NCBI GenBank assembly: GCA_964408775.1
Contig: CAYPAP010000001.1
Span: forward strand, 289,839 to 353,838
Length of the DNA stretch: 64,000 nt
Direction of reading: 5' to 3'
Source: an uncultured Gammaproteobacteria bacterium
Lineage (GTDB): Bacteria; Patescibacteriota; Patescibacteriia; Patescibacteriales; UBA12465
How positions within the stretch are numbered: the first letter of the stretch is position 1; each line of letters begins with the position of its first letter. The position numbers and the translations under genes are program-made. The notes beneath the pieces were generated by a model. That model searched no databases and had not been told where the DNA came from. It worked only from the letters and a program-made list of their open reading frames with translations. Shown here one piece after another: positions 13,199 through 42,609 of this stretch.

Positions 13199-14068
13199 AT
13201 GAAAAAACTTGTTGTATTATTTGTAATTTTGGTTGCAATAGCAACCACCGTTTTTGGGCAGATTACCTCCAGTGACCTCCTCGAAAAGAGGACTCAGGAA
13301 ATTCAGGCCATCGATAAGAGCCTGAGAAAATCTGCTACCAGGGGCACCCAAGTCGACCCAGATGAACGGGAAAAGCTGGTGGCAAAAGTTGACTCCTTTT
13401 ACCAGCCGCTAATCTTAGCGGCCATGGGAAGAGAGTCTTCCGCAAGTACCACTACCTCTGCCACACCGACCACTTCTTCTGTCCAGAAGAAGGCAGGTAG
13501 TCATATTACGTATGGTAGCGATGGGAAGGTGACAGGAACCACCGAGGTTTCTTCGGAAACACCGGTGGCACCACCAAACCCCATACCAGCTCCGGCTGAC
13601 AGAAATTGTTTTGGCTCAACGGTCACCTATCAAGGAGACCAGGGGGCTTTCAGCGGCAACTCTACCTCTGTAAGAAGAGGTTCGGAGGCTTACGCTACCG
13701 TAGCCATAGCTGATGCCAACGCCTATCTGGTCCGCCAGATGGCTAAAGGTGCTAGCGCCACGGTAAATGCCCCAGCCACAGGAAACCAGGTTGGTCTGGA
13801 AGGAATGATTATAAACAAATATCGCTTCCGCGAATTGGAAGTGGAAATTGTTGGGACAAATCCCGGCAATGTTTATAAAAGAACATTCCTCCTGGGAAAA
13901 GAACAGTCCATCACGGACTACTTACTCCCAGGAAACTACAGGGCTACCATTAAAATTGTTGGACATGGATCTCCTGCGATCCATAACTTCACAGTAGCCC
14001 CCCAGCGAACCCACTCTTTCCACGGAAAGAATGTTTTCTGGGGCCTATATGGAGGAAGCTCCTGGTAA
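13199..14068 (+). CDS. secreted hypothetical protein, strongly GC-enriched relative to flanks
   Basis: 289 aa. Signal peptide MKKLVVLFVILVAIATTVFGQ and a Ser/Thr/Pro-rich linker. No family recognised. Has its own promoter and terminator. Confidence 0.6.
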   Translation: MKKLVVLFVILVAIATTVFGQITSSDLLEKRTQEIQAIDKSLRKSATRGTQVDPDEREKLVAKVDSFYQPLILAAMGRESSASTTTSATPTTSSVQKKAGSHITYGSDGKVTGTTEVSSETPVAPPNPIPAPADRNCFGSTVTYQGDQGAFSGNSTSVRRGSEAYATVAIADANAYLVRQMAKGASATVNAPATGNQVGLEGMIINKYRFRELEVEIVGTNPGNVYKRTFLLGKEQSITDYLLPGNYRATIKIVGHGSPAIHNFTVAPQRTHSFHGKNVFWGLYGGSSW

Positions 14069-14124: not shown

Positions 14125-14197
14125 CAAAAAAACAACAAAAAAATCATCGCATTAAACCGATGATTTTTTAAAAATACAGAAATTAAATTTATAAACC

Positions 14198-14641
14198 CTA
14201 AGGAGTTCCACCAACATTAGGGGTTGTTGTGGTTTGAGATCCTCCAGGTAAATTTCTGAAAACAAAAGCTGTAATTGCATAAGCTAAAACCACAATAATC
14301 AACCCTATAACCGCATTCTTAATTCTACTCTGAGCTTTTTTAACTTGTTCTTCATTACCGCCGGCAGTCATCCACTGATAACCGCTAAATATCATCAAAA
14401 TAACAAAAATAACAGCTAAAAGAGATAGAAGAGTAAGAATAATAACACTAATAATTCCCTCTGCTTGAACAGATTGAGAAAATCCAGCTGAAGATATAAA
14501 GGCGCCCATTTGTCTCTCTCCAGAAGAGGCTACCTCCTCCGCAGGGTTACCTGCCAAAACATTATTAACCGAAAAACCGAAACTAAAAAAAACAGCTAAC
14601 AGAATTATTATTACAAATTTATTTTTAAAAAGTTTTTTCAT
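14198..14641 (-). CDS. TrbC/VirB2-like 'T4SS pilin' family small membrane protein (paralog 1)
   Basis: Signal peptide, variable region, TM1, conserved loop QWMTAGGNEEQVKKAQ, TM2 (AVIGLIIVVLAYAI). Confidence 0.75.
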   Translation of the reverse strand: MKKLFKNKFVIIILLAVFFSFGFSVNNVLAGNPAEEVASSGERQMGAFISSAGFSQSVQAEGIISVIILTLLSLLAVIFVILMIFSGYQWMTAGGNEEQVKKAQSRIKNAVIGLIIVVLAYAITAFVFRNLPGGSQTTTTPNVGGTP

Positions 14642-14645
14642 ATAA

Positions 14646-15047
14646 TTATTGTTGTATTCTATTTATAAAATATCTATCTATCAAACTCCAAATAGCATAG
14701 GCTGATAACGTTATAATTAATCCAATAATAGCGCTTTTAATTCTCTCCTGAGCTTTTTTAACTTTTTCCTCATTGCCACCAGCGGTCATCCATTGAACAC
14801 CACCAAAGATTATCAAGATTATAAAAAGAACACCCAAAATAGAAAGAACCACATTAGCCACTAAACCCAGACCACTAGCCAAGGAAGTTTCATCAGCAGA
14901 AGAATAACCACCGCTTTCGCCAACTTTTTCTAAACGACCCAAAATACCAGAAGAATCACTTTCATCAGCAAAAACTAAAAAGGGTAAACACAATAAAAAA
15001 ACTAAGAAAATTGCTGAAAGAAATGAGTTTATATTTTTTTTAACCAT
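14646..15047 (-). CDS. T4SS pilin-like protein (paralog 2)
   Basis: Same architecture. Loop motif is QWMTAGGNEEKVKKAQ. Confidence 0.75.
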   Translation of the reverse strand: MVKKNINSFLSAIFLVFLLCLPFLVFADESDSSGILGRLEKVGESGGYSSADETSLASGLGLVANVVLSILGVLFIILIIFGGVQWMTAGGNEEKVKKAQERIKSAIIGLIITLSAYAIWSLIDRYFINRIQQ

Positions 15048-15081
15048 AGAAAAATTATTTATTTAAATTAAATCCTAATAA

Positions 15082-15501
15082 TTAAACCCCGGAGGCCTGA
15101 TTAATAAACGCCCCTATTACAAAAATAGAAATGGCATAGGCTGTTAAGACTATTACTAACCCTATTATCGCCCTTCTAATAATACTTTGAGCCTTGCTTA
15201 TCTTTTCTTCATTTCCGCTAGCAGTCATCCACTGAATTCCTCCATAAATCATTAAAATAATGAAAAGAACACCTAGAATAGAGAGGACAACCTGGACTGC
15301 TGTTCCCACAACTGTTTCCGGAGTAGTGGTTCCACTGATATCATAACCCATTTGAGAAGCGGCGGCACCCAAGGCCTTGTCTTCACCAGATCCAAAGGCA
15401 TCTGAAAGATTAGCAGCCTTAGTACTGGAAATAAATAAAAAGCAAAACAAAAATATTATTAATAAAAAATGAATGGTTTTAAAATAATTATTTTTTTTCA
15501 T
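15082..15501 (-). CDS. T4SS pilin-like protein (paralog 3)
   Basis: Same architecture. Loop motif is QWMTASGNEEKISKAQ. Confidence 0.75.
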   Translation of the reverse strand: MKKNNYFKTIHFLLIIFLFCFLFISSTKAANLSDAFGSGEDKALGAAASQMGYDISGTTTPETVVGTAVQVVLSILGVLFIILMIYGGIQWMTASGNEEKISKAQSIIRRAIIGLVIVLTAYAISIFVIGAFINQASGV

Positions 15502-15523
15502 AAAAACAATCTAATATAAACAA

Positions 15524-15934
15524 TTATTGCAAAGAATCTGAAAAAGCTGTAACCAATAAAATACTAATGGCATAAGCTAACAAGACTACAGCTAAGCCAA
15601 TAATGGCCCTAGTAATAGTAGACTTGGCTCTCTCTAGTTTTTGTTCATTGCCCCCAGCAGTCATCCATAAAATCCCTCCTAATATTAACATGATCATAAA
15701 AAGAACTCCTACGAGAGACAAAACTATATTGACAATCACACCAGCCCCAGAATCCAGAGATCCGGCACTATTAAAAATTTTTTGACTAGTATGTCCTGTC
15801 CCCTTGGCTGTGGTTTCTACGCCAGTGCTCTCTAGAAAAGAAAAGGCATTACCAACCCCTATATTTAAAGAGAAAAATAAAAAAAAGATTAAAGGTAATA
15901 TAAGAATATAATTTTTAATCTTTTTTAAACTCAT
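15524..15934 (-). CDS. T4SS pilin-like protein (paralog 4)
   Basis: Same architecture. Loop motif is LWMTAGGNEQKLERAK. Confidence 0.75.
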   Translation of the reverse strand: MSLKKIKNYILILPLIFFLFFSLNIGVGNAFSFLESTGVETTAKGTGHTSQKIFNSAGSLDSGAGVIVNIVLSLVGVLFMIMLILGGILWMTAGGNEQKLERAKSTITRAIIGLAVVLLAYAISILLVTAFSDSLQ

Positions 15935-15947
15935 AGAAAATTAAATT

Positions 15948-16412
15948 TTAACAGTATAAACTAATATTTTCTAAAATATTTTTTGATGTTCCACCACCAT
16001 CAGTTCCTGCCGGATCGGAGCTGGTTAACTGTTCTCCAATAAAGGCGGTAATTGCATAAGCAGCTAGAACTATGATTAAACCAACAATTGCCTGAACAAT
16101 GAGACCACGTGCCTTTGCCACCTGTTGTTCGTTGCCTTGAGACAGCATCCATGTAAGACCTCCATAGATTATTAAGGCCATAAAAATAACCCCGATGAAA
16201 GACAGAATGGCCCCTATTAATATACCTAGTCGACTAGAAATAAAATTACCGGAGCCTTTGGAGTTATCAACATCTTCAACACTAAAAGCCTCCCCCAAGT
16301 CCCCCACCTGAACTGTTTCCCCCAGACCATAAGAAGCCTGGACTACAGCAAAAAAAGAAAAAAATAAAAAAACCACTAATAAAAAAATGATAAATTTATT
16401 TAATTTAAACAT
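15948..16412 (-). CDS. T4SS pilin-like protein (paralog 5, most divergent loop)
   Basis: Same architecture. Loop motif is TWMLSQGNEQQVAKAR. Confidence 0.7.
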   Translation of the reverse strand: MFKLNKFIIFLLVVFLFFSFFAVVQASYGLGETVQVGDLGEAFSVEDVDNSKGSGNFISSRLGILIGAILSFIGVIFMALIIYGGLTWMLSQGNEQQVAKARGLIVQAIVGLIIVLAAYAITAFIGEQLTSSDPAGTDGGGTSKNILENISLYC

Positions 16413-16546
16413 ATTTTATATTTTAATAGCAAAATATACGTCCATTGTTGTAGGCACTTTAATAATAAAACGCTCACAACGATGGTGCTTATTTCTAAAA
16501 ATAAGCACCGTACTTCCAAAATCGACTTTAGAAATAACACAAAGAA

Positions 16547-16942
16547 CTAGTTTCCGGTTGCAGACATTAATTCGTTTAGAACAAATGAAGCGATTCCCCA
16601 GGCGGCTAGAATTATAACCAAACCGATAACACCGGCTCCTAATAATTTTTTGGCCTCGGCCACTTTCTCTTCATTGCCTCCAGCGGTCATCCATTTAAAT
16701 CCACCCAAAAGAACGATAATAACGGCGATGATTCCCAATAAAGTTAGAACTACGTTAATAATTTGGGCTATCATGGTGCGAGGATCTTTTTGTCCCAAGA
16801 CAATCTCTTCTCCTCCTGCGGCCCCATTAATATAATTATAACCGAAATTATCTCCGGCTGCCTCTACTCCAGCAGGCAATACCATCAAAAACGGAGTTAA
16901 AAACAAAGAAACTATAAACAAAGAAATTATTTTTTTTCTCAT
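16547..16942 (-). CDS. T4SS pilin-like protein (paralog 6)
   Basis: Loop motif KWMTAGGNEEKVAEAK. Strong SD (GAAAGGTGGTGA) upstream. Confidence 0.8.
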   Translation of the reverse strand: MRKKIISLFIVSLFLTPFLMVLPAGVEAAGDNFGYNYINGAAGGEEIVLGQKDPRTMIAQIINVVLTLLGIIAVIIVLLGGFKWMTAGGNEEKVAEAKKLLGAGVIGLVIILAAWGIASFVLNELMSATGN

Positions 16943-17500
16943 AATTCACCACCTTTCTAGTTTTAAATTTAATAAATTATAATATTAAAATTATAACACA
17001 AAAGAACGGAAACGACAATAAAAACATTAATAAAAAGTGAGCACTAGTTTCCAGTAGCGTCCATTAATTCATTTAAGACAAACGAAGTTATTCCCCAGGC
17101 GGCTAGAATTATAACCAAACCGATAACACCGGCTCCTAATAATTTTTTGGCCTCGGCCACTTTCTCTTCATTGCCTCCAGCGGTCATCCATTTAAATCCA
17201 CCCAAAAGAACGATAATAACGGCGATGATTCCCAATAAAGTTAGAACTACGTTAATAATTTGGGCTATCATGGTGCGAGGATCTTTTTGTCCCAAGACAA
17301 TCTCTTCTCCTCCTGCGGCCCCATTAATATAATTATAACCGAAATTATCTCCGGCTGCCTCTACTCCAGCAGGCAATACCATCAAAAACGGAGTTAAAAA
17401 CAAAGAAACTATAAACAAAGAAATTATTTTTTTTCTCATAATTCACCACCTTTCTAGTTTTAAATTTAATAAATTATAATATTAAAATTATAACACAAAA
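16593..17500. repeat. tandem duplication, period 497 bp, with 411 bp identical by eye (16593-17003 = 17090-17500)
   Basis: Line-by-line comparison of the two copies. Identity covers the promoter, SD and most of the CDS, but stops about 45 nt before the stop codons. Confidence 0.85.
17044..17439 (-). CDS. T4SS pilin-like protein (paralog 7, near-identical to paralog 6)
   Basis: Differs from paralog 6 only in the last ~15 residues. Confidence 0.8.
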   Translation of the reverse strand: MRKKIISLFIVSLFLTPFLMVLPAGVEAAGDNFGYNYINGAAGGEEIVLGQKDPRTMIAQIINVVLTLLGIIAVIIVLLGGFKWMTAGGNEEKVAEAKKLLGAGVIGLVIILAAWGITSFVLNELMDATGN

Positions 17501-17533
17501 AAAGTAAACAACAATAAAAACAAACCAAAAAAG

Positions 17534-17929
17534 CTAGTTTCCGGTTGCGTTCATTAGTTCGTTCAGAACAAACGAGGTTATTCCCCAAGCAGCTAGAATT
17601 ATAACCAAACCGATAACGCCAGCTCCTAATAATTTTTTAGCCTCAGACACCTTGTCTTCATTGCCCCCGGCGGTCATCCATTTAAATCCACCCAAAAGGA
17701 CAATAACAACAGCAATAATACCAAGCAACGTTAAAACAACGTTGATAATCTGGGCTACCATAGTACGAGGATCTTTTTGTCCTAAAACTATGCCTTCTCC
17801 GGCTACCCCATTGCCATTTACATACCTTAATCCAAAAGGATCGGACGGCGTAGCCTCAGCTGGAAAAGCAATTAAAAATGGGGTTAAGAACAAAAAGAAT
17901 ACCAACAAAGAGATTATTTTTTTTTTCAT
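17534..17929 (-). CDS. T4SS pilin-like protein (paralog 8)
   Basis: Loop motif KWMTAGGNEDKVSEAK. Close relative of paralogs 6 and 7. Confidence 0.8.
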   Translation of the reverse strand: MKKKIISLLVFFLFLTPFLIAFPAEATPSDPFGLRYVNGNGVAGEGIVLGQKDPRTMVAQIINVVLTLLGIIAVVIVLLGGFKWMTAGGNEDKVSEAKKLLGAGVIGLVIILAAWGITSFVLNELMNATGN

Positions 17930-18066
17930 ACTTTAAAATTTTACTTTTAAAAAACTGCTATTAGAAATTAGTCTTAATTCAATATTTAACACACAATAAT
18001 TCTAACATATATTTCAAAAAAGTACAATTACTGTTATAATAAATACATAATTTAAAAATAATTACC

Positions 18067-19731
18067 ATGAAGAGAATAAAATTCAAGAACATTATAATTA
18101 TCTTTTTCTATTTAATATTCTTTCTATTATTGCTAAAGAGTTCCTTCTCATACTTGGATCCTGATTTGGGTTGGCACTTAAAAGCCGGGGAAGAGGCTCA
18201 TTTAAATAAAGCCGTTCCTTACGAAAATTATTACAACTATGTTTTTCCAGCCGAAGAAAATTTCTGGATAAATCACGAATGGCTATCAGACTACTTATTG
18301 TTTTTAGCTTATGATAATTGGGGCTATCCTTTTATAAACATATTTTTCGCCCTGCTTATTATATTAACCTTAGTAATATTAAATGGCTTTGTTAGTAAAA
18401 AGATAATAAAAGATGAGAGGTCTATTTATATTATATTAATAATAGAGGCTTTAGGTCTCAGGGCGATGCTACCTCATTTTGGCGTTAGAGTACAAGAAAT
18501 AAGTGTTTTATTTCTCCTCTTATTATTAATAATTGTTTTTAATTTCGAAAAGGGGGCTTTAAATAAAAATAATCGTTATTTTTTAGTATTAATATGGTTG
18601 ATCCCCCTCTTTTATTTATGGGCCAATTTACACGCTGGATTTTTATTAGGAATATTTACATTACTCTTTTACTTAGGAGTAAAAATAATTGAAAAAATTG
18701 TCTATAATTTTAAAGACAGAAAATTAGGAAGAACCCTGGAATCTTTCTTCAATCTAGAGAGCCGCCTTGGCAACAAAAACTTAAGGATATTTTTTGTTTT
18801 CTCTATTTTGGCTGTTGCCAGTACCACCCTAACTCCTTATGGCTTAAAATTGTTTGACTTTTTATCTTCCTATAAAAATACCGCCTATTTAAAAATAATA
18901 TCTGAGTGGCTACCTCAGTATTATTGGCCTCTGATGTATGAACAGATAGTATACATCGGACTAGTTTTAACTGGTTGGATAATTACTGTGTTTTTTTATA
19001 AAAATTATAAAAATAATCAACATGGAAAGGTTTTTCTAAGCCCCTGGATGCTGGCTTTAAATCTTTTTTTTATAATTTTAGCCATAAAATCGAAAAGGCA
19101 CTTTCCTCTGTTCTTTATAGTATCACTTCCATTTATTTCCAGCTTCTTTTATCATGAGTTTAAAGAGACATTATTGAAAGGAATAAAAAAAACAAATAAT
19201 ACTATAGACTGGTTTTTAAAAATATTTTTAATTAGTGTTTTTACTTGTACTACCTTGTTAATAGCTATAAATATTAATTTTGTTTATAATCCCTTTGATT
19301 ACTTTAATCAAAGCTACCCCCGAGACGCCACTAACTTTCTAAAAGAAAATCATGAAAAATATTTTTCAGCTAATATTTTTAATCACTATGCCTGGGGAGG
19401 ATATCTGATTCATGAATATCCAGAAAAAAAATTATTTATTGACGGACGCCTTCCCCAAAAAGAAATTAATAATCACAGCTTTGTAGAAGAATATGCTTTG
19501 TTTTTTTCAGAAGAAGAGGAAATCGTTACTAAAAAAATTGAAGAATATCAGATTAAATTATTTTTACTAGACAAACCAATAAAAATAAAAAAACGCTGGT
19601 TAGATAAAAAAATATTTGGCTTTAAAAATGACTATCTAGAGACAGAGAACCAGCTAATAAAATATTTAGACAATAACAATTTTAATAAAATCTATGAAGA
19701 CGAAATTAGTGTCATCTATTACCAAAAATAA
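18067..19731 (+). CDS. large polytopic membrane protein, possible GT-C-type glycosyltransferase
   Basis: 554 aa with many TM helices. Family not recognised with certainty. Confidence 0.5.
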   Translation: MKRIKFKNIIIIFFYLIFFLLLLKSSFSYLDPDLGWHLKAGEEAHLNKAVPYENYYNYVFPAEENFWINHEWLSDYLLFLAYDNWGYPFINIFFALLIILTLVILNGFVSKKIIKDERSIYIILIIEALGLRAMLPHFGVRVQEISVLFLLLLLIIVFNFEKGALNKNNRYFLVLIWLIPLFYLWANLHAGFLLGIFTLLFYLGVKIIEKIVYNFKDRKLGRTLESFFNLESRLGNKNLRIFFVFSILAVASTTLTPYGLKLFDFLSSYKNTAYLKIISEWLPQYYWPLMYEQIVYIGLVLTGWIITVFFYKNYKNNQHGKVFLSPWMLALNLFFIILAIKSKRHFPLFFIVSLPFISSFFYHEFKETLLKGIKKTNNTIDWFLKIFLISVFTCTTLLIAININFVYNPFDYFNQSYPRDATNFLKENHEKYFSANIFNHYAWGGYLIHEYPEKKLFIDGRLPQKEINNHSFVEEYALFFSEEEEIVTKKIEEYQIKLFLLDKPIKIKKRWLDKKIFGFKNDYLETENQLIKYLDNNNFNKIYEDEISVIYYQK

Positions 19732-21088
19732 AAAAAACAACAAAACATATCTTTTTATTGCCTTCTATTACTTATTGCTATTATTATTTTGTTTATTTTT
19801 TCATTATAGAAATTATTTAAACGCTGACGAGGGAGTAATTTTAAATGGAGCTTGGCATCTTTTTAACGGCTATCAATTATACTTTGACTTTTTTGAAATA
19901 ATAGGTCCAGGGAGCTTTTATCTTGTTTTTTGGGGTTTTAAAATATTTGGACCTCATTATTATGTTGCCAGTATAATAAGCATATTGGTTCTATGGGGTG
20001 GCTCTATTGGAATTTTTAAACTTCTAAATTTAATAAAAAAAGATATTTTCTTGAATTTTATAATTCCAATTTTATTTATAATTATTTTTATCGGTGATCC
20101 GATTATCAATCATAATTTATATAATATTTTTTTTATAATTTGGTCTTGCTATTTTTTGGCCCTGGGACTTAAAACAAATAAGAGCAAATATTTTGTCTGG
20201 GGCGGTTTTCTCGGAGGATTGGCTGTTGTTTTCTTACAACAAAAAGGATTATTGTTTTTGGGTTCAACTTTTTTATTTTTACTAATGGACATGATAAGAA
20301 ATAAATTTAAAAATTATAAAAATATTTCTATATATGTAGTCTTTTCTCTCTTGCCAATAACCTTAGTTCTTATAAATTGGCCTATAGAATTACTTTATTA
20401 TAATCTAATAAAGTTTCCCTCTTTAAATTACTGGGAAGCAAACAAAACCTCGTTTTTATTATTAATAATAGCCACTCTTTTCTTTTCGTATTATGCAATA
20501 AGATTAAAAAATAAATCCAAGATTACCGACTATCTCCTTTTTACTCAATTTTTTTTACTACTATCTGTAATCCCATTAGCAGATCTCTATCATATTTCAT
20601 TAGTAGTTTTTCCCCTACTAACTCTAACACCTTTTTTGTTTATAGCTTCAAAAAATTGGACTAAAATAATCCCTATTATATTTCTATTTTGGATGGCCAT
20701 TTATTCTTTGGGGGAAGCGATAACAAACTTCAAGCCATTCTATTTTTTCCCAAAAGATTTTATTGAATTTATAAGAGAAGAATGTCCTGATAAATATATT
20801 TATGTTGGACCGTTCTGCCCTGGTATTTATTTTGAAACGAAAAAAATAAATGCCAGCTCCTATGGATTGTTAATTGAAGGATATTCTACCACAGAACAAT
20901 TTGAAAAAGCGTTAGAAGAAATTAAAATAAACCAACCTTCCTGTATAATACTAAATTATAGCCAAAATACCAGCGAACACTTTCAACATCAAGGAAATAA
21001 TGTATTAGAAGAATACATTAGCAAAAACTATAGAATTAAGAAAACTTATTATGATAATCAAATCGTCATCTATAGCAACCGAGAATAA
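19694..21088 (+). CDS. large polytopic membrane protein
   Basis: 464 aa with many TM helices. The N-terminus MKTKLVSSITKNKK resembles that of the next gene. Confidence 0.5.
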   Translation: MKTKLVSSITKNKKNNKTYLFIAFYYLLLLLFCLFFHYRNYLNADEGVILNGAWHLFNGYQLYFDFFEIIGPGSFYLVFWGFKIFGPHYYVASIISILVLWGGSIGIFKLLNLIKKDIFLNFIIPILFIIIFIGDPIINHNLYNIFFIIWSCYFLALGLKTNKSKYFVWGGFLGGLAVVFLQQKGLLFLGSTFLFLLMDMIRNKFKNYKNISIYVVFSLLPITLVLINWPIELLYYNLIKFPSLNYWEANKTSFLLLIIATLFFSYYAIRLKNKSKITDYLLFTQFFLLLSVIPLADLYHISLVVFPLLTLTPFLFIASKNWTKIIPIIFLFWMAIYSLGEAITNFKPFYFFPKDFIEFIREECPDKYIYVGPFCPGIYFETKKINASSYGLLIEGYSTTEQFEKALEEIKINQPSCIILNYSQNTSEHFQHQGNNVLEEYISKNYRIKKTYYDNQIVIYSNRE

Positions 21089-21110
21089 AAATTTAATTTT
21101 GCCAAAGTTT

Positions 21111-22448
21111 ATGAAAACAAAATTATCATCACTTATCATCAAAAATAAAAATCTAATTTTACTGGGACTAATATATTTCTCTTTTTTATCTCTATTCTAT
21201 TTAGTAGAGCCAGTTAGAATAATAATATTTCAAGAAAGCTCTCAGACCCTAGGAGAGAATGTTGTTTTTTGGGCCGTGATTCTAAATCTTATTATTTTGT
21301 TTTTAACCCACCTATTATTTTTTAAAAAAATACAAAAAATTTCCTTCAAAAAACTTTTTATAGTAAGTGTAATAATAAACTTATTTTTATGGTTAGTTTG
21401 GCCTATTGCTTCATCAGATGTTTTTGGTTATATTTACCAAGGAAGAGTCTGGGCGATTTTCAAAGAAAACCCTTATTTAACTAGCTATTACAGCTTTCAA
21501 CATGATGTTTTCTTCAACAGTCTAAACAACATTTGGTCGGAATACACCTCGAGATATGGGCCAATTTTTACAATAATCAATAGCTTTTTTACCTTCTTAT
21601 TTAAAAACAATATTGTATTAAATTTATTTATCCTGAAATTTTTCTTTATAATAATTAATATTTTAAATGGATACTTAATTTATAAAATAACTAAAAACAA
21701 AAAAGCCTTTTATCTATACACACTTAACCCACTAATATTATTTGAATTTGCTATAAACGGGCACAACGATGTCTTATTTATATTCTTTATAGTATTGGCT
21801 ATGTTCTTTCTAGGTAAAAAAGGGCACGACTTAAAAAACTACTTAACCTCTTTTTTCTTATTAACACTGTCATTTCTGACAAAATTTATATCCGTTATCT
21901 TTTTACCAATATTCGCTCTGAAAGCGTTTATTAAAACAGATAAAAAAGCACTATTAATTTTTTACTTGCTTTTAATATTTTCTATTACCTTAATATTGTC
22001 ATATATTCCTTTTTCAAAAAAAATAATAGACATTGTTGGGGCTCCGCTGCCTCAGCTAAGCATGTTAAGCATAACTGCGTCTCCATTAATAATTTTGCTG
22101 ATACTAATTTCTATGCTCACAAAAAACTATCTACCACTAGAGTCTGTTATACCAATAGCAGGGGTTATCTTTGTTTTCTGTTATTTAATAATTTTGTTTG
22201 ATATAATCAAGAAAAGGAAGGTTTTAAAAAACAGTCAAAACAATCTTTCTTTCTTTTGGTATTTTGGCCTAGTTCTATTGCTTTTTTATCTCACATCAAT
22301 CCCCTGGCTAATGCCATGGTATTTCCCGTTATTAATAGCCTTGTTCTCAATAATATTTTCTAGCACCTCAAAAAAAGAGCGTTTTTCTCTGCTGGTAATA
22401 TTTGGGGCAACTTTTTATGGAATTATTAATTATTTAATTTTAAGATAA
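21111..22448 (+). CDS. large polytopic membrane protein, possible GT-C/DUF2029-like glycosyltransferase
   Basis: Start moved to MKTKLSSLIIKNK at 21111, after the upstream stop at 21088. Contains the motif SSDVFGYIYQGR...NPY. Confidence 0.5.
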   Translation: MKTKLSSLIIKNKNLILLGLIYFSFLSLFYLVEPVRIIIFQESSQTLGENVVFWAVILNLIILFLTHLLFFKKIQKISFKKLFIVSVIINLFLWLVWPIASSDVFGYIYQGRVWAIFKENPYLTSYYSFQHDVFFNSLNNIWSEYTSRYGPIFTIINSFFTFLFKNNIVLNLFILKFFFIIINILNGYLIYKITKNKKAFYLYTLNPLILFEFAINGHNDVLFIFFIVLAMFFLGKKGHDLKNYLTSFFLLTLSFLTKFISVIFLPIFALKAFIKTDKKALLIFYLLLIFSITLILSYIPFSKKIIDIVGAPLPQLSMLSITASPLIILLILISMLTKNYLPLESVIPIAGVIFVFCYLIILFDIIKKRKVLKNSQNNLSFFWYFGLVLLLFYLTSIPWLMPWYFPLLIALFSIIFSSTSKKERFSLLVIFGATFYGIINYLILR

Positions 22449-22452: not shown

Positions 22453-23217
22453 ATGTTAATCGAGTTTACTTTTCCTTGCTACAATGAGGAACAATTGTTA
22501 CAAAAAAATTGTTTAAAATTTCTTCAATACCTAAAAGACCAAAATTACCATTTTGATTGGCGAATAATATTGATAATAAACGGCTCTAGTGATAGTTCTG
22601 AAAAAATTGCTTTAGATCTAGAACAAAAAAACCCAGAAATAAGGGCCTTTATAATAAAAGAAAAAGGTAGAGGAAATGCTATTAAAACTTATTTCGACCA
22701 AAGTCAGGCTGACTTTTTAATTTATATGGACATTGATATGGCGGTATCAATAGAAAACACCAATGATTTAATTAACCCTTTTTTAACAGAGAACTATGAT
22801 GTTGTTATTGGTTCTCGTTTATTAAAAATATCCAAAACTGAAAGGTCATTTATTAGAGAGCTAAGCTCAAGAACATATATTTCCTTATCCAAAATAATCA
22901 TAAAACACAAATTTTCCGACCTGCAGTGTGGCTTTAAAGGCATAAAAAAAGAAGATTGGACAAAAATAAGCCCCCATATCGAAGATCGTGGATGGTTTTT
23001 TGACACCGAGCTACTCCTCTGGGGACAATTACTGGGCCTTAAAATAAAAGAAATTCCGGTTAATTGGTCGGAAAATCGTTACGAAAAAAGAAAAAGCAAG
23101 GTAAAACTAGTTAGAGACTCTTTAGTTTTTATAAAAAAACTAATTCAACTAAGAAAAAGAATTAAACACACCGATGTTAACAAAGATTTTTCTTCTTCGC
23201 CACCCCAAAAATACTAA
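22453..23217 (+). CDS. family 2 glycosyltransferase (polyprenol-phosphate sugar transferase-like)
   Basis: GT2 fold features: FPCYNEE, an acidic DxD-like motif (YMDIDMAV) and FSDLQCGFKG. Confidence 0.75.
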   Translation: MLIEFTFPCYNEEQLLQKNCLKFLQYLKDQNYHFDWRIILIINGSSDSSEKIALDLEQKNPEIRAFIIKEKGRGNAIKTYFDQSQADFLIYMDIDMAVSIENTNDLINPFLTENYDVVIGSRLLKISKTERSFIRELSSRTYISLSKIIIKHKFSDLQCGFKGIKKEDWTKISPHIEDRGWFFDTELLLWGQLLGLKIKEIPVNWSENRYEKRKSKVKLVRDSLVFIKKLIQLRKRIKHTDVNKDFSSSPPQKY

Positions 23218-25949: not shown

Positions 25950-26342
25950 TTATTTTAATTCAACACCAGAAGTATCTCCATCCCAACTGAGGTTAAAGGC
26001 CTCCATCACAAAGTTAATAATTATATAGCTAGTAAAAACAAGAGCTAAGCCAATAACGGCTGCTATTAAAATATTTTTAGCCTTAGAGACTTTTTCAGAG
26101 TTTCCAGCTGAAATTAGCATTAAAAACCCACCAATAACAAACATTAAAAGCGCTAAAGACCCGACTATTCCTAAAATCAAACTAGACACATTTATTCCCA
26201 CTCCGACTAAGTCCTCTAACTCATAATTACCGCTTTCATATTTAGACCCTTGAGGGACTATTGAATTACTGGCAGAAACAAAACTAAAACTAAGAAGTGA
26301 AAAAACAATAACTATTGTTGCTATTTTAAAAAATTTTAACAT
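25950..26342 (-). CDS. T4SS pilin-like protein (dispersed ninth paralog)
   Basis: Signal peptide and two TM helices. Loop LMLISAGNSEKVSKAKN is homologous to the WMTAGGNEEK loop of the array. Confidence 0.65.
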   Translation of the reverse strand: MLKFFKIATIVIVFSLLSFSFVSASNSIVPQGSKYESGNYELEDLVGVGINVSSLILGIVGSLALLMFVIGGFLMLISAGNSEKVSKAKNILIAAVIGLALVFTSYIIINFVMEAFNLSWDGDTSGVELK

Positions 26343-26357
26343 ATTTTTAAAAATTAA

Positions 26358-27725
26358 TTACCTAATAGTTTGCTGAATTCTGCTAGCGTACAAATTCATG
26401 ATTTCCATTATTTTATTTTCAGTATCTTGTAGGGCAGCCTCTATCATTTCAGAAAAAAAGTTCTCCATTAAGACTGGTCCCTTACCTCTATACCAACTTT
26501 TAGCTGTAAGAACCTGATCTACAAAAACCCCAATTTCCAAATCTTCTCTTTGAGATGGAACTAAAGACCTGAGAGCGGTTGGCTTCTTAGTTTTATTTAG
26601 GTAAGAAGGAACCCGTTCAGCGCTAGTCATAAACTGAATAAAATTCCAGGCCTCATTTTTGTGCTCGCTCTTTTGAGATACCACTTCAACCCAATAATTA
26701 GCAAAGTTAGTAGAAACATTAGATCCCTCTATTTGCGGTAAAGGAGCAATCATAAAATTTAATTTAGGAGCAGTGGTTTTTATTATTGGCATATGGTAAG
26801 AATAACCAAACATCATAGCCAGATTTCCAGAAGTAAACATGGTTAAAGCACTAGGAAGATCATTGTTCCAAGAATAAACCTCTTTGATAGGGTTGGCAAA
26901 ATCTGTATAAAATCTAAGAGCCATCAATCCAGGATTATAATCAGAGCTCCTAAGGCTACTGGGCACTGTATGAAACAAAACCTGACCAGCATCGTTTAAC
27001 ATGGTGGCGCCATTTTGCATCATTAATACAGATAATATATCACTATATCTCTCTATATTGGAGGTTCCTCCCATAGCAACGCCCGACTGGATAACATTCC
27101 CTTTCAGGTCTAGCTTGGTAAGCTCTTTAACGGTTTGCTGAAAATCTCTATTCCAATATCCAGGAACATCTACTATACCAGCCCTATCAAATAAATCTTG
27201 GTTATAATACATAGCGAGAGTATCAACCGACAAAGGAAGTCCATAAATTTGATTATTTATAACTACATCCGAATAAACGGCGTCTACAAAGTTTTGTTTA
27301 AGCTCCTTTAAGTTTAGACCGCGAACACTCCTGGATTCTGCCACCACTTCTTTTTTGATAGAACCTTGAACAACGGGGAAAACCATATTGGTAAATTCTG
27401 GAGCAGGAGAAATTTTGCTTTCATATTTTTTCATCCAAGTATTATGAATAGAAAAAATATCAGGACCACGATCCTCGGCAAAAGCATTTAAAAGCTCACT
27501 TTCATATTCTTCGTATCTAAGTTTTCGATAATTTATTGTTATATAGGGGTGTTGCTCATTATACATTCTAATAATTTCAGCAAAATCATCTGGCCCGTCA
27601 AAAACTCTCCAATAATTTAAAACTATTGGATCAGTAGCCTTGTCTATAGTTTTCTTTTTACACCCAGCCCCAACGGTTAACAATAAAACAAAAAGTAAAA
27701 AAACAAAAAATATTTTTTTAGACAT
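26358..27725 (-). CDS. ABC transporter extracellular solute-binding lipoprotein (sugar type)
   Basis: Lipobox LLTVGAGC. SBP family-1-like sequence. No permease gene adjacent. Confidence 0.7.
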   Translation of the reverse strand: MSKKIFFVFLLFVLLLTVGAGCKKKTIDKATDPIVLNYWRVFDGPDDFAEIIRMYNEQHPYITINYRKLRYEEYESELLNAFAEDRGPDIFSIHNTWMKKYESKISPAPEFTNMVFPVVQGSIKKEVVAESRSVRGLNLKELKQNFVDAVYSDVVINNQIYGLPLSVDTLAMYYNQDLFDRAGIVDVPGYWNRDFQQTVKELTKLDLKGNVIQSGVAMGGTSNIERYSDILSVLMMQNGATMLNDAGQVLFHTVPSSLRSSDYNPGLMALRFYTDFANPIKEVYSWNNDLPSALTMFTSGNLAMMFGYSYHMPIIKTTAPKLNFMIAPLPQIEGSNVSTNFANYWVEVVSQKSEHKNEAWNFIQFMTSAERVPSYLNKTKKPTALRSLVPSQREDLEIGVFVDQVLTAKSWYRGKGPVLMENFFSEMIEAALQDTENKIMEIMNLYASRIQQTIR

Positions 27726-39588: not shown

Positions 39589-39978
39589 TTATACTACAAT
39601 AGATGAGATAATTATTATCAATAATAAAAAATAATATATTATTGAGAGTTTTTTGTAGTTCTTTTTGTTCCAGGTAAAACCCGAAACCATTATAAGCACT
39701 GAAACAATCAGGGCTATAAGTGTGAGCAGGCTGTAAAACAGACTTAACAGAATAAACTGAGAAGCCATAATAGCAGTTGCAAAAACCAAGACAACTGCCA
39801 TAAAGAAGGAAATATTTTTTGTTTTTTTCTTGAGCGTCAAATTTGACGCCATGAGCAGAGCGGCCAAAATGAAGGAGCTCAACACTGGGTTGAGTGGGGC
39901 ACCCTGGCCGCCCATAAGAGGATGGGCACTACAAATCGTGGCCCAAAAAATAAACAAGAAAAACATCAGTTTTTTCAT
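39589..39978 (-). CDS. hypothetical membrane protein (cassette 5), GC-enriched 5' half
   Basis: 129 aa. Signal-like N-terminus MKKLMFFLFIFWATICSA plus TM helices. Terminator AATCCCGC/GCGGGATT at 39556-39583. Confidence 0.5.
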   Translation of the reverse strand: MKKLMFFLFIFWATICSAHPLMGGQGAPLNPVLSSFILAALLMASNLTLKKKTKNISFFMAVVLVFATAIMASQFILLSLFYSLLTLIALIVSVLIMVSGFTWNKKNYKKLSIIYYFLLLIIIISSIVV

Positions 39979-40140
39979 TTTTTTGGTTTTTGGTTAGACA
40001 ATGGGGTTAACTATACTTGTTTTTTGTTAAAGGCCTCTTGATAATAAAACATCGTATCATATAAAATATTGCTTGTAAAGAGTATTGAATAAAAAATCCC
40101 GCTACATTTGTAGAGCGGGATTGTAGACTTTTTATTATTA

Positions 40141-40683
40141 TTATTTACGTACAGCGAGGAAGTAAGAATCAGGGGCTCGAATAGCATCGAACCACTGAAA
40201 ATAAAGTTGACGCTCCTCACAATTAATAGAGAGAACTGGGCAATACGCCTCAGCATATCCTTCTTCATTATGGGACCACCAACACCACATGGAGCCCAGC
40301 GCAATAATAAAAGAAGGTTTTTGTAGCTCCGGATAGTTGTTTCCCAAGGCCAGAAGCTCTGACACAAGAGCAGGGCGATAACCGGCACTATCCAATTCAT
40401 CTAAAACAACTTCACTGCTGACCTCTCGGTTAAAGTGAAACAACCTGGCCGATACAGTCACTTGCTTGCCTAAGAGCTCAGCGGGAAAAGGAAACTTTTC
40501 TTCTGTGATATCAAAACTGATCCACTCGTAATTACTAGTTTTAATCATTTCTTCCAGGTTTTGGCTGTAGTCCACTGTCAAAATGATTTCCCTGCTTAGG
40601 CTGATGACTCGTTCTTGAGCCATAATTTGATTTAAGGGGTTGCATAAAACAAATAAAATCAAAGTGAATACCAATTTTTTCAT
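40141..40683 (-). CDS. hypothetical secreted protein (cassette 4), GC-enriched
   Basis: 180 aa. Signal peptide MKKLVFTLILFVLCNPLNQIMAQ. Terminator ATCCCGCT/AGCGGGAT at 40096-40121. No family recognised. Confidence 0.55.
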   Translation of the reverse strand: MKKLVFTLILFVLCNPLNQIMAQERVISLSREIILTVDYSQNLEEMIKTSNYEWISFDITEEKFPFPAELLGKQVTVSARLFHFNREVSSEVVLDELDSAGYRPALVSELLALGNNYPELQKPSFIIALGSMWCWWSHNEEGYAEAYCPVLSINCEERQLYFQWFDAIRAPDSYFLAVRK

Positions 40684-40798
40684 TTTACCTTGGTTTTTGG
40701 TTAAGTAATTGGGTTAATTATCAAGCCTACTAATTATAATAGAATTAATAATTAACCTAATTTTAACCTTCTTGTGAAAGTGCTATCTGTAACAAAAA

Positions 40799-40827
40799 AG
40801 AATATCACATAGATATATTTTTGTCAA
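40799..40827 (-). promoter_or_regulatory. promoter of cassette 4
   Basis: Minus-strand TTGACA (40827-40822), 17-nt spacer, TATTCT. Homologous to the promoter at 42490-42518. Confidence 0.5.
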
Positions 40828-40831
40828 GCTA

Positions 40832-40840
40832 GGTGGCTAG
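40832..40840. repeat. tRNA-His 3'-end core copy (GGTGGCTAG)
   Basis: Identical to 42522-42530 of the tRNA-His gene. Followed on the plus strand by TGTGGAAAGTTGGAAAACTTTTCTGA. Confidence 0.6.
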
Positions 40841-40940
40841 TGTGGAAAGTTGGAAAACTTTTCTGATGGAATATTTGGTAAATTGATATAAAAAAGACCC
40901 GCGATGTTATTGCGGGTCTAAACGTTTGAATTATTGCCTC

Positions 40941-41264
40941 TCATTCTTCCAGATACACAAATCTAGGATCAAGCACTTTTTTATCATGCTTTTTCGTTTC
41001 TACATAACTAATACGAATACTATTCTCTGGATAAGCTAATCTCAAATAAGAAATTCGTAAAACGAGGTTTCTATTTTGAACAAACAGAGTATCGCGCTCA
41101 TTAGTAATAACAACAATTGATTTCATGTGAGCGGCTCCACTAGGTCCCAGAAATACTAATTCTTGATCAGCAGGGATTATAATATCCCTCCAATTAGAAT
41201 CATTACCGCAAGAGTTAAACAATACAAACAAAAATGATAGCAAAATAACTGAAAATGTTTTCAT
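40941..41264 (-). CDS. hypothetical lipoprotein-like protein (cassette 3)
   Basis: 107 aa. Signal peptide with Cys (LFVLFNSCGN). Promoter TTGACA-17-TATACT at 41340-41312. Terminator at 40895-40919. Confidence 0.5.
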   Translation of the reverse strand: MKTFSVILLSFLFVLFNSCGNDSNWRDIIIPADQELVFLGPSGAAHMKSIVVITNERDTLFVQNRNLVLRISYLRLAYPENSIRISYVETKKHDKKVLDPRFVYLEE

Positions 41265-41423
41265 GATATTTATTTTTTTGGTGAATATCTTAATGAACTA
41301 TATAACACGATAGTATATAATATTTAAATAATTTTGTCAAGCAGTTTGTCTTCCCGCTAGGGGTAACCGATTTTTAACAAAAAAATACCCCATTTTATTG
41401 GGATATTTTTAATTTGCTTCTAG

Positions 41424-41433
41424 GGGTGGCTAG
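41424..41433. repeat. tRNA-His 3'-end core copy (GGGTGGCTAG, 10/10)
   Basis: Identical to 42521-42530. Confidence 0.6.
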
Positions 41434-41434
41434 C

Positions 41435-42518: not shown

Positions 42519-42519
42519 G

Positions 42520-42594: not shown

Positions 42595-42609
42595 ATAAAC
42601 CGAAACAAA

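What the first reader, a model, noticed from the sequence alone, without database searches (positions are those of the whole stretch)
14198..17929. Eight tandem TrbC/VirB2-like 'T4SS pilin' paralogs with no secretion machinery in view
Seen in sequence. Eight consecutive minus-strand ORFs of 131-154 aa share one architecture: signal peptide, hypervariable Gly/Ser-rich segment, TM1, near-invariant loop W-M-T-A-G-G-N-E-E-K-(V/I)-x-K-A-(Q/K), TM2 (AIIGLxIxLxAYAI) and a variable tail. A ninth diverged copy sits at 25950-26342. Established knowledge: this two-TM hairpin topology after a signal peptide is that of VirB2/TrbC conjugative pilins. A family of this kind (recalled as Pfam T4SS_pilin; accession not verified) is widely annotated in CPR genomes. 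Inference: variability is confined to the mature N-terminal segment and the C-terminal tail, which suggests surface-exposed diversification. This could reflect antigenic or host-attachment variation, or heteropolymer subunits. No VirB4, VirD4 or VirB6 gene occurs in the 64 kb, so what assembles these proteins is an open question.
Basis: partly seen in the sequence, partly recalled or inferred. Interest (0 to 1): 0.7.

Follow-up and report, generated by a model that had tools for sequence, protein, structure and literature searches.

The report
Tandem VirB2-like pilin genes, Patescibacteria
Eight back-to-back genes, plus a ninth nearby, in an ultrasmall Patescibacteria genome encode small two-helix "T4SS pilin" membrane proteins; such arrays are already documented in this phylum, and this one is an old, fixed-order set of six distinct pilin types, not a fast-changing antigen family.

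Summary
Eight tandem minus-strand genes (14198-17929) and a ninth (25950-26342) match Pfam PF18895 T4SS_pilin. Each has a signal peptide, a variable Gly/Ser-rich segment, a confidently modelled two-helix hairpin around a conserved WMTAGGNEEK loop, and a variable tail. No VirB4, VirD4 or VirB6 lies in the window or 10 kb beyond either edge.

The kind is already published. Quinonero-Coronel et al. 2025 report 441 arrays of 2-11 VirB2-like genes in Patescibacteria. Wang et al. 2023 show that a six-pilin array is essential in a Saccharibacterium. Their Table S3 shows Falkowbacteria (class ABY1, the nearest named relatives) carry VirB4-TrsD about 40-400 gene indices from the array.

New here:
- The array is a colinear set of six pilin types conserved across most of 80 related species.
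- Orthologs are under purifying selection everywhere (dN/dS 0.09-0.27).
- Only the head gene is amplified (P6-P8), with one apparent gene-conversion polymorphism.

This favours specialised, non-interchangeable subunits over antigenic variation.

Two conserved neighbours were also found: an unannotated oligosaccharyltransferase-like GT-C protein with a GT2 partner, and an orphan solute-binding protein paired with the ninth pilin.

Verdict: an ordinary new member of a known kind, with moderate interest.

The parts
17534..17929 (-). P8, head-class pilin (131 aa), first gene of the array
   Evidence: PF18895 at 41.6 bits (E 1.3e-10). PF04956 TrbC below threshold at 22.8 bits. 79-80% identical to P6 and P7. 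All three map to one ortholog in relatives.
17044..17439 (-). P7, head-class pilin (131 aa); its 5' 420 nt are identical to P6
   Evidence: PF18895 at 46.6 bits. DNA is identical to P6 from -60 to about codon 117. All 71 differences between the window and a second assembly of the same species fall in this gene.
16547..16942 (-). P6, head-class pilin (131 aa), candidate major subunit
   Evidence: PF18895 at 46.4 bits. This is the most conserved class across species, at 65-81% identity. Only P6 and P7 have a Shine-Dalgarno-like AAAGGTGGTGA upstream.
15948..16412 (-). P5 pilin (154 aa), most divergent array member
   Evidence: PF18895 at 24.9 bits, just below the 26.6 cut-off, E 2.2e-5. Positional orthologs are 52-73% identical.
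15524..15934 (-). P4 pilin (136 aa)
   Evidence: PF18895 at 40.9 bits. Has positional orthologs.
15082..15501 (-). P3 pilin (139 aa), the copy modelled
   Evidence: PF18895 at 38.9 bits. AlphaFold2 mean pLDDT 81.9, with hairpin helices 61-93 and 98-136 at pLDDT 89-97 over residues 71-130.
14646..15047 (-). P2 pilin (133 aa)
   Evidence: PF18895 at 40.9 bits. Only 4 nt separate it from P1.
14198..14641 (-). P1 pilin (147 aa), last gene, with a Thr-rich tail
   Evidence: PF18895 at 39.5 bits. NF045849 at E 1.1e-9.
14138..14169 (-). Terminator-like hairpin 29 nt after the P1 stop codon
   Evidence: 12-bp stem followed by a T-run. This is a consensus match only.
17930..18066 (.). 137-nt divergent intergenic region between P8 and the GT-C gene; the presumed promoter region for both operons
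   Evidence: Gene coordinates. Promoter-like sites are not above the shuffle expectation, so this is an inference.
25950..26342 (-). P9, solitary seventh pilin type (130 aa)
   Evidence: PF18895 at 42.4 bits. Orthologs are 52-77% identical and always lie apart from the main array and next to the SBP gene.
26358..27725 (-). Orphan SBP_bac_1 solute-binding protein (probable lipoprotein), 15 nt upstream of P9
   Evidence: PF01547 at E 2e-27. In related loci, 27 of 29 homologs are followed within 200 nt by a pilin gene on the same strand.
18067..19731 (+). M554, an unannotated GT-C-fold glycosyltransferase transcribed divergently from the array (context; functional link not shown)
   Evidence: No Pfam hit. 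AlphaFold2 pLDDT 92.6, pTM 0.92. Foldseek matches to AglB/STT3/DPY19 at E 2e-6 to 3e-4, probability 1.0. Divergently adjacent in 30 of 52 assessable loci and in both loci sampled from the M554 side.
19694..22448 (+). Two further GT-C genes (PMT_2-like, 464 aa; MptA_B-like, 465 aa), which are variable extras of the cluster
   Evidence: PF13231. PF26314 in the precomputed gene call. Present in only some relatives.
22453..23217 (+). GT2 glycosyltransferase, the conserved partner of M554
   Evidence: PF00535 at E 1e-19. Follows M554 directly in L096 and L097 and in most relatives.

Best explanation
The nine genes encode Sec-exported, signal-peptidase-cleaved, two-helix hairpin membrane proteins of the T4SS_pilin family (PF18895). 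These are the VirB2-like 'pilins' of the Patescibacteria type IV secretion system.

Shown here:
- Family membership, topology and hairpin fold.
- The array is a fixed-order set of six distinct pilin types, P6-class to P1-class, conserved across related species, plus a seventh type (P9) paired with a solute-binding protein.
- Every type is under purifying selection.
- Only the head type is amplified (three copies here).

Inferred:
- After membrane insertion, the N- and C-termini face outward and the conserved, positively charged WMTAGGNEEK-x-KA loop faces the cytoplasm.
- The proteins are extracted and assembled by a VirB4-TrsD-type T4SS of the monoderm (MPF-FATA-like) kind. It is encoded elsewhere on the chromosome, as in other ABY1/Falkowbacteria genomes.
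- The six types are non-interchangeable subunits. The conserved, amplified head type, which alone has a Shine-Dalgarno-like site, would be the major subunit. The others would be minor or specialised subunits of one pilus-like or channel structure used in the host-dependent lifestyle.
For: Family and structure:
- PF18895 hits to all nine copies.
- Three hydrophobic segments and AxA cleavage sites in each.
- Confident AlphaFold2 hairpin.
- NCBIfam 'Mbov_0395 pilin-like conjugal transfer protein' hits with E down to 1e-9.

Conservation:
- Positional one-to-one orthologs in eight relatives.
- Colinear 6-5-4/3-3-2-1 class order in most of 80 species-representative loci. The modal array size is 6, in 32 of 56 complete arrays.
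- dN/dS is 0.09-0.10 in the core, 0.20-0.27 in the N-terminal segment and 0.24-0.26 in the tail.
- Head-class genes are duplicated repeatedly in different lineages (patterns 66, 666, 6666).
- A Shine-Dalgarno-like site precedes only P6 and P7.

Literature:
- 441 such arrays have been reported. Pilin genes are near virB4 in 1,135 of 1,948 assemblies (PMC12102498).
- VirB4 is present in 2,417 of 3,035 genomes.
- Falkowbacteria have VirB4-TrsD 43-400 gene indices from the array.
- A six-pilin array inside the T4SS cluster is essential in S. epibionticum (PMC10633639; PMC12857230).
Against: - No T4SS ATPase was found in the 82.7 kb examined. None was found within 10 kb of any of 88 related arrays by single-sequence PrgJ/PcfC search, which has limited sensitivity. 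I could not locate VirB4 in this genome with the tools available.
- No pilus made of these proteins has ever been observed.
- Similarity to classical VirB2/TrbC is weak. Pfam TrbC scores 20-23 bits against a cut-off of 27.9. hhalign gave 35% and 1.5% probability.
- Foldseek cannot tell a two-helix hairpin apart from unrelated helical hairpins.
- dS is about 1, close to saturation, so the dN/dS values are approximate. Pooled estimates could hide a few positively selected sites.
- The major/minor subunit assignment is inference only.
Confidence: 0.6

Rival explanations
1. Antigenic or host-range variation. The paralogs would be interchangeable surface variants that diversify quickly, by duplication, recombination or switching, to evade recognition or match different host strains. 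The literature suggests this for Bartonella and Anaplasma VirB2 paralogs.
For: - Variation between paralogs is concentrated in the exposed segments.
- Head-gene copy number varies between strains: 1, 2 or 3 copies.
- The only polymorphism across 20 kb between two assemblies of the species replaces the N-terminal segment of P7 with that of P6, which looks like gene conversion.
- PMC12102498 proposes adaptation to different host strains.
Against: - Six types with fixed order and one-to-one orthologs across most of 80 species.
- Exposed segments are 56-71% identical between orthologs, against 23% between paralogs.
- dN/dS is 0.2-0.27, which indicates purifying selection.
- All copies are full-length, with their own start codons and signal peptides. 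None is a silent cassette.
- The dynamic behaviour is confined to one of the seven types.
Confidence: 0.12
2. Not pilus subunits. The proteins would be small integral membrane components, for example of the translocation channel or of an unrelated envelope complex. The Pfam name 'pilin' would then be a prediction that does not hold.
For: - No experimental pilus has been shown for this family.
- Gram-positive-type T4SSs normally lack pili.
- There is no significant structural or sequence match to solved VirB2/TraA pilins.
- In this clade the array is never next to VirB4.
- The best-conserved part is the cytoplasmic loop, not a surface.
Against: - In 1,135 assemblies of other classes the genes lie beside virB4.
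- In S. epibionticum they are inside the T4SS cluster and are essential.
- The signal peptide plus hairpin architecture is that of VirB2.
- The TM1-WM region aligns in register with Agrobacterium VirB2 at E 4e-4.
- Hits to the Mycoplasma ICE pilin-like family reach E 1e-9.
Confidence: 0.18
3. Add-on hypothesis: the pilins are glycosylated. The divergently transcribed pair of M554 (an oligosaccharyltransferase-like GT-C enzyme) and GT2 (a polyprenyl-phosphate-sugar synthase type) would decorate the exposed Ser/Thr/Asn-containing segments of the adjacent pilins. From my own knowledge, this would be analogous to TfpW/TfpO encoded next to pilA in Pseudomonas, or AglB acting on archaeal pilins.
For: - The M554 model (pLDDT 92.6) matches protein-glycosylating GT-C enzymes AglB, STT3 and DPY19 at E 2e-6 to 3e-4. 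Its C-terminal domain matches the AglB globular domain.
- The EL1 residues D31-x-D33 are invariant.
- M554-GT2 lies divergently next to the array in 30 of 52 assessable loci, and in both loci sampled independently from the M554 side.
- It is retained in distant loci where the PPDK flank is lost.
Against: - N-x-S/T sequons are not convincingly enriched in the exposed segments. z is 2.1 in M554-adjacent arrays and 1.1 in the others, and there is no enrichment in the tails.
- 22 of 52 arrays lack an adjacent M554 and have PBP1A, M23/LysM peptidase, RNase J or SBP genes instead.
- The whole SMC-to-PPDK block is syntenic, so adjacency may simply be inherited.
- The M554 family is huge (24,792 cluster representatives), far broader than the pilin arrays.
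- Neighbouring MptA_B and PMT_2 genes fit synthesis of an envelope glycan equally well.
Confidence: 0.15

Closest known systems
VirB2-like pilin arrays of Patescibacteria (Quinonero-Coronel et al. 2025, PMC12102498; the essential six-pilin array of Ca. Southlakia epibionticum, Wang et al. 2023, PMC10633639)
   Same: Same Pfam family (PF18895). Tandem arrays of 2-11 sequence-divergent genes in chromosomal, origin-proximal regions. The modal size here is six, as in S. epibionticum.
   Different: - Here the array stands alone, at least about 24 kb and 56 kb from any T4SS ATPase on its two sides. In S. epibionticum it lies inside the T4SS cluster.
- P6 and P7 are 98% identical, above the 54% maximum within-array identity the paper reports.
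- The fixed order and orthology of the six types, the SBP pairing and the GT-C neighbour are not described in those papers. 'Glycosyl' occurs 0 times in either text.
Agrobacterium VirB2 / RP4 TrbC conjugative pilins (Pfam PF04956)
   Same: Long signal peptide, two hydrophobic helices joined by a short charged loop, and small size. A G-x-x-W-M motif at the end of TM1 aligns in register.
   Different: - Scores are below the Pfam threshold (20-23 bits against 27.9), and only for P6-P8.
- The second hhalign test was negative.
- There is no adjacent virB operon.
- The organism is a monoderm.
- Cyclisation or other processing is unknown.
Mbov_0395 / ICE_MMCAP2_0565 pilin-like conjugal transfer protein of Mycoplasma ICEs (NCBIfam NF045849)
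   Same: This is the best-scoring curated non-Pfam family, with E down to 1e-9 over the hairpin core. It comes from a wall-less monoderm with an MPF-FATA-type T4SS, the class to which Patescibacteria VirB4 is related. NCBI already gives this name to some Patescibacteria homologs (P0017).
   Different: All nine copies score below the equivalog cut-off (18-38 bits against 40). The Mycoplasma genes are single genes within mobile elements, not chromosomal arrays.
Tandem VirB2 paralogs of Bartonella and Anaplasma (as cited in PMC12102498)
   Same: Tandem amplification and sequence variation of VirB2-type pilin genes.
   Different: Those are interpreted as antigenic variation in pathogens of animals. 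Here the paralogs are ancient, ordered and under purifying selection.
Pilin-adjacent glycosyltransferases TfpW/TfpO of Pseudomonas aeruginosa and AglB of archaea (my own knowledge, not tested here)
   Same: A membrane glycosyltransferase is encoded beside the pilin gene(s). M554 has the GT-C fold of AglB/STT3.
   Different: These systems act on type IV (T4P-class) pilins, not VirB2-class pilins. No evidence here shows that the pilins are substrates, and the sequon test was negative.

Membership tests
Pfam PF18895 T4SS_pilin | Whole-protein HMM score at or above the gathering cut-off (26.6 bits) | tested here: met
   Eight of nine copies score 38.9-46.6 bits. P5 scores 24.9 bits (E 2.2e-5), just below the cut-off.
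Pfam PF18895 T4SS_pilin | Architecture of a signal peptide followed by a two-TM helical hairpin | tested here: met
   Three hydrophobic segments and AxA-type sites in all nine. AlphaFold2 hairpin with pLDDT 89-97 over residues 71-130 of P3.
Patescibacteria VirB2 array (as defined in PMC12102498) | Two or more PF18895/VirB2-profile genes in tandem or separated by one non-pilin gene | tested here: met
   Eight consecutive genes. All 80 related species-representative loci also carry arrays of 3-13 genes.
TrbC/VirB2 pilin (Pfam PF04956) | HMM score at or above the gathering cut-off (27.9 bits) | tested here: not met
   Only P6-P8 hit, at 20.2-22.8 bits (E 1e-4 to 7e-4).
TrbC/VirB2 pilin (Pfam PF04956) | Detectable homology to an authentic VirB2 by profile comparison | tested here: inconclusive
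   hhalign against Agrobacterium VirB2 gave probability 35% and E 3.9e-4 over 39 columns. Against an Acetobacter TrbC/VirB2 it gave probability 1.5%. A PDB profile search gave only artefacts.
VirB2-type pilin of a T4SS | Genetic linkage to VirB4 and other mating-pair-formation genes | tested here: not met
   None in the window plus 10 kb on each side, and none within 10 kb of 88 related arrays by PrgJ/PcfC phmmer. Literature places VirB4-TrsD 43-400 gene indices away in Falkowbacteria.
VirB2-type pilin of a T4SS | Polymerises into an extracellular pilus with bound lipid | not testable with these tools
   Needs cryo-ET or cryo-EM. The 2025 review states that a pilus is only a possibility.
NCBIfam NF045849 Mbov_0395 pilin-like conjugal transfer protein | Score at or above the equivalog cut-off (40 bits) | tested here: not met
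   Scores are 18.3-37.9 bits, with E from 1.1e-9 to 1.3e-3. The proteins are related but are not equivalogs.
Antigenic-variation pilin system | Rapid diversification: positive selection in exposed parts, unstable gene content, silent cassettes | tested here: not met
   dN/dS is 0.20-0.27 in the exposed segments. Order and orthology are fixed. All copies are complete genes. The exception is the P6-to-P7 conversion-like polymorphism.
STT3/AglB/PglB oligosaccharyltransferase (for the neighbour M554) | GT-C fold with an acidic EL1 motif and a C-terminal globular domain | tested here: met
   Foldseek matches to AglB 7e9s at E 1.8e-6 and TM 0.50, to yeast and human STT3, and to the AglB C-terminal domain 3vu0 at E 7e-3. 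D31 and D33 are invariant.
STT3/AglB/PglB oligosaccharyltransferase (for the neighbour M554) | Sequence membership (Pfam STT3 model, WWDYG motif) | tested here: not met
   No Pfam hit at E <= 1e-3. A PDB profile search was empty. The corresponding region reads Y-x-W-G-G, not WWDYG.

The most novel reading that the evidence does not exclude
In ABY1/Falkowbacteria-type Patescibacteria, the locus would be a self-contained 'pilus module' kept apart from the VirB4 motor. It would comprise:
- six non-interchangeable VirB2-like pilin types in fixed order, with an amplifiable major subunit at the head;
- a seventh pilin co-transcribed with an orphan solute-binding lipoprotein, acting as a candidate tip, adhesin or cargo receptor;
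- a divergently transcribed oligosaccharyltransferase-like GT-C/GT2 pair that glycosylates the exposed pilin segments.

Together these would build a glycosylated, heteropolymeric T4SS pilus in a monoderm, used for host attachment or uptake of host molecules.
Probability: 0.1. Interest if true: 0.75.

Novelty: new member of a known kind. Interest (0 to 1): 0.35.

Why it matters
What the Patescibacteria T4SS does, and whether its VirB2-like proteins form a pilus in a bacterium with no outer membrane, are open questions for a phylum that makes up a large share of uncultivated bacteria. The system is essential in the one species tested.

This locus adds no new kind of element. The comparative result does narrow the hypotheses. 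An ancient, ordered, purifying-selected set of six pilin types plus a seventh paired with a solute-binding protein argues for a multi-subunit structure and against immune-evasion-style variation.

It also names concrete partners to test: the solute-binding protein and the oligosaccharyltransferase-like GT-C/GT2 pair.

Tried and rejected
1. Foldseek of the pilin model against the PDB gave nothing with E < 1. An archaeal conjugation pilus (8dfu) ranked third at E 3.7. A two-helix hairpin is too simple for fold search.
2. A profile search of the PDB hit only designed 'Pizza' repeat proteins, through a 19-residue motif summed over six repeats. This is an artefact.
3. Large Walker-A ORFs beside arrays in L028, L064, L069, L079, L084 and L030 were suspected to be VirB4. 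Pfam shows they are SMC, ComM, SBP, PNPase, PilB and DNA polymerase I.
4. phmmer with pCF10 PrgJ, PcfC, PrgI, PrgH, PrgK and PrgL against the window and 88 loci gave nothing below E 0.01.
5. I tried to obtain a Patescibacteria VirB4 probe from the contexts of pilin homologs P0005, P0040 and P0063. All were the same stand-alone type of locus. VirB4 could therefore not be located on the 298-431 kb contig of this organism.
6. The N-glycosylation sequon enrichment test was not supportive.
7. M554 compared with its GT-C neighbours showed no sequence similarity.
8. Promoter and terminator scans were not above the shuffle expectation, apart from one hairpin after P1.
9. Rfam found only tRNAs.
10. tblastn of P6 against 72,556 plasmids gave no match.
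11. R388 (BR000038) is not in the collections.
12. A search for a tenth pilin copy or a VirB6-like polytopic ORF in the window found none.

Full report
OBSERVATION

The window (32.8% G+C) carries eight consecutive minus-strand ORFs at 14198-17929. I call them P1 to P8; they are 147, 133, 139, 136, 154, 131, 131 and 131 aa long. A ninth, P9, lies at 25950-26342 and is 130 aa. A profile built from the nine, searched against all six reading frames, finds only these nine (E <= 6e-36; next best E = 0.07).

Gaps between genes are 4-34 nt from P5 to P1 and 94-134 nt among P8, P7, P6 and P5. A terminator-like hairpin follows P1.

Each protein has exactly three hydrophobic segments. The first is a signal peptide with a K/R-rich start and AxA-type cleavage sites. 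The other two are transmembrane helices around a short charged loop. WMTA[GS]GNE[EDQ][KQ] is present in seven copies and degenerate in P5 and P9.

IDENTITY

Pfam PF18895 (T4SS_pilin) matches all nine copies at E 4e-12 to 2e-5. Eight score above the gathering cut-off, and P5 falls just below it. The classical TrbC/VirB2 model PF04956 gives only sub-threshold hits, to P6-P8. NCBIfam's Mycoplasma-ICE family 'Mbov_0395 pilin-like conjugal transfer protein' hits with E down to 1e-9 but below its equivalog cut-off.

An AlphaFold2 model of P3, made with a 73-sequence alignment, gives a signal-peptide helix, a low-confidence N-terminal segment (pLDDT about 60) and a confident hairpin of helices 61-93 and 98-136, with pLDDT 89-97 over residues 71-130.

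Fold search and PDB profile search are uninformative for so simple a fold. Profile comparison with Agrobacterium VirB2 aligns TM1 and the W-M motif in register, but weakly (probability 35%, E 4e-4) (reference sequence verified). A second VirB2-family reference gave nothing.

So membership in T4SS_pilin is solid. The architecture is VirB2-like. Homology to classical VirB2 is not demonstrated by my tests.

ORGANISM AND CONTEXT

The same sequence occurs in several metagenome assemblies, on contigs of 298 kb and 431 kb. The nearest species-representative genomes carry names such as Falkowbacteria, Magasanikbacteria, Kuenenbacteria or 'Patescibacteria group'. The paper's Table S1 places Falkowbacteria and Magasanikbacteria in class ABY1.

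The window is ordinary chromosome. It includes PPDK, SMC, ComM, a P-type ATPase, PBP1A, glycosyltransferases, tRNAs and the replication-origin genes dnaA and dnaN, with rpmH-rnpA-yidD-yidC nearby. The array lies about 29 kb from dnaA.

MACHINERY

No VirB4, VirD4 or VirB6-like gene is present in the window or in 10 kb beyond either edge, 82.7 kb in all. Single-sequence searches with the pCF10 T4SS proteins found nothing in the window or within 10 kb of 88 related arrays. Several large ATPase ORFs that looked promising turned out to be SMC, ComM, PilB and others.

This stand-alone arrangement is therefore a property of the clade and not an artefact of the window boundaries. The literature explains it:
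- VirB4 occurs in 2,417 of 3,035 Patescibacteria genomes.
- VirB2-like genes lie near virB4 in only 1,135 of 1,948 assemblies.
- In three Falkowbacteria genomes in Table S3, the VirB2 array and the VirB4-TrsD pair are 43 to about 400 gene indices apart.

I could not retrieve the VirB4 of this particular genome.

ALREADY KNOWN

Quinonero-Coronel et al. 2025 (PMC12102498) describe 441 arrays of 2-11 VirB2-like pilin genes in 383 Patescibacteria assemblies. Mean identity within an array is 25% and the maximum is 54%. They suggest adaptation to host strains.

Wang et al. 2023 (PMC10633639) found a series of predicted pilins inside the T4SS cluster of S. epibionticum to be essential. A 2025 review (PMC12857230) counts six of them and notes that a pilus has not yet been shown.

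The finding is thus a rediscovery of a published phenomenon in another genome.

WHAT THE COMPARISON ADDS

(a) All 80 closest species-representative loci carry arrays. Among 56 complete arrays the median is 6 genes and the range is 5-12.

(b) I assigned each array member to its best-matching window paralog. The result is a dominant colinear order, 6-5-4/3-3-2-1. P9-class genes always sit apart, beside a solute-binding protein gene. Eight close relatives show one-to-one, same-position orthologs of P1-P5 and P9, while P6, P7 and P8 all map to one ancestral gene.

(c) Selection between orthologs (window against L003 and L011) is purifying in every region:

| Region | dN/dS |
|---|---|
| Core | 0.09-0.10 |
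| N-terminal segment | 0.20-0.27 |
| C-terminal tail | 0.24-0.26 |
| Signal peptide | 0.42-0.48 |

The N-terminal segment is 56-71% identical between orthologs but only 23% identical between paralogs. dS is near 1, so these ratios are approximate.

(d) The head class is the most conserved (65-81% identity), gives the best Pfam scores and is the only class preceded by a Shine-Dalgarno-like site. It has also been amplified independently in several lineages.

(e) Within this species, the only differences across 20 kb between two assemblies lie in P7. In the window, the first 420 nt of P7 are identical to P6. The other assembly has a third, distinct N-terminal segment there. This is either gene conversion or an assembly artefact. 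The window-type P7 protein is seen only on the NCBI contig.

Together these results favour six or seven specialised, non-redundant subunits, with an amplifiable major subunit. They argue against an antigenic-variation family.

NEIGHBOURS

The array is transcribed divergently from a 554-aa membrane protein (M554) that has no Pfam domain. Its AlphaFold2 model is very confident (pLDDT 92.6, pTM 0.92). The model matches GT-C-fold enzymes that glycosylate proteins: archaeal AglB, yeast and human STT3, and the C-mannosyltransferase DPY19 (E 2e-6 to 3e-4). It also matches AftA and ArnT. D31-x-D33 in the first external loop is invariant.

M554 with a GT2 gene directly after it lies next to the array in 30 of 52 assessable loci. 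The same holds in both loci I sampled starting from M554 homologs. A role in pilin glycosylation is conceivable, but several results count against it:
- Sequons are not convincingly enriched.
- 22 of 52 arrays have other neighbours.
- The whole SMC-to-PPDK block is syntenic.
- The M554 family is far larger than the pilin arrays (24,792 cluster representatives).

The second pairing is tighter. 27 of 29 homologs of the orphan SBP_bac_1 protein are followed within 200 nt by a pilin gene on the same strand, as with P9 here. Its meaning is unknown.

VERDICT

The family assignment and the 'no machinery in view' statement are right. The antigenic-variation reading is not supported.

The element is a new member of a known kind. 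Interest is moderate. The general biology is still unsolved, but a specialist would not be surprised by this locus. The added value lies in the conserved six-type order, the head-gene amplification and the two conserved neighbours.

Noticed in passing
window 17000-17500 (P7); L001 7215-7598: All 71 differences between the window and a second assembly of the same species, across 20 kb, fall inside P7. In the window, the first 420 nt of P7 equal P6. L001 encodes a distinct 127-aa variant there. This is either gene conversion or a repeat-polishing artefact.
   Followed up: partly
window 18067-19731 (+): A 554-aa membrane protein with no Pfam domain is confidently modelled as a GT-C glycosyltransferase closest to the AglB/STT3/DPY19 oligosaccharyltransferases. 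It belongs to a very large unannotated family (24,792 cluster representatives at E <= 1e-3).
   Followed up: partly
window 25950-27725 (-); also L051, L056, L058, L069, L079, L083, L084, L088, L096, L097: An orphan SBP_bac_1 solute-binding protein (probable lipoprotein, with no permease gene nearby in the window) is followed directly by a T4SS_pilin gene in 27 of 29 cases. In some genomes it heads the whole array.
   Followed up: partly
window 45035-51602: Replication-origin region: dnaA (46451-47818), dnaN (45035-46156), rpmH, rnpA, yidD and yidC. The pilin array lies about 29 kb away. This is consistent with the published note that T4SS genes in this phylum tend to lie near the origin.
   Followed up: yes
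window 39589-43143 (-): A run of six small ORFs (about 100-180 aa) with no Pfam hits lies downstream of tsaE. Several have signal-peptide or lipoprotein-like N-termini. Their function is unknown.
   Followed up: no
window 52110-53186 (-), 56781-57224 (+); L084 11636-13348: Type IV pilus-class (N_methyl) pilin genes are also present in the window. In L084, a PilB-type ATPase lies directly downstream of a VirB2-like array.
   Followed up: no
window 13199-14068 (+): A 289-aa secreted protein with a Ser/Thr-rich linker and no Pfam domain lies convergent to the end of the array. It is conserved at that position in at least ten relatives.
   Followed up: no
L030, L043, L047 (about 6.6-8.5 kb); L031, L034, L066 (about 4.7-8.3 kb): Where M554 is absent, the gene divergent from the array is an M23/LysM peptidoglycan hydrolase or a PBP1A. 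These might stand in for a VirB1-like wall-remodelling function.
   Followed up: no
L096 5863-6936: An rve-family transposase is inserted between M554 and the pilin array in one relative. The rest of the block is intact.
   Followed up: no
L013-L089 record titles: Many of the related MAG records are titled 'uncultured Gammaproteobacteria bacterium', although their gene content and synteny are plainly Patescibacteria. These look like placeholder or mislabelled names.
   Followed up: no
L019 2393-3865: A 490-aa ORF hits both the SBP query and the pilin profile. It may be an SBP-pilin fusion or a read-through or frameshift.
   Followed up: no
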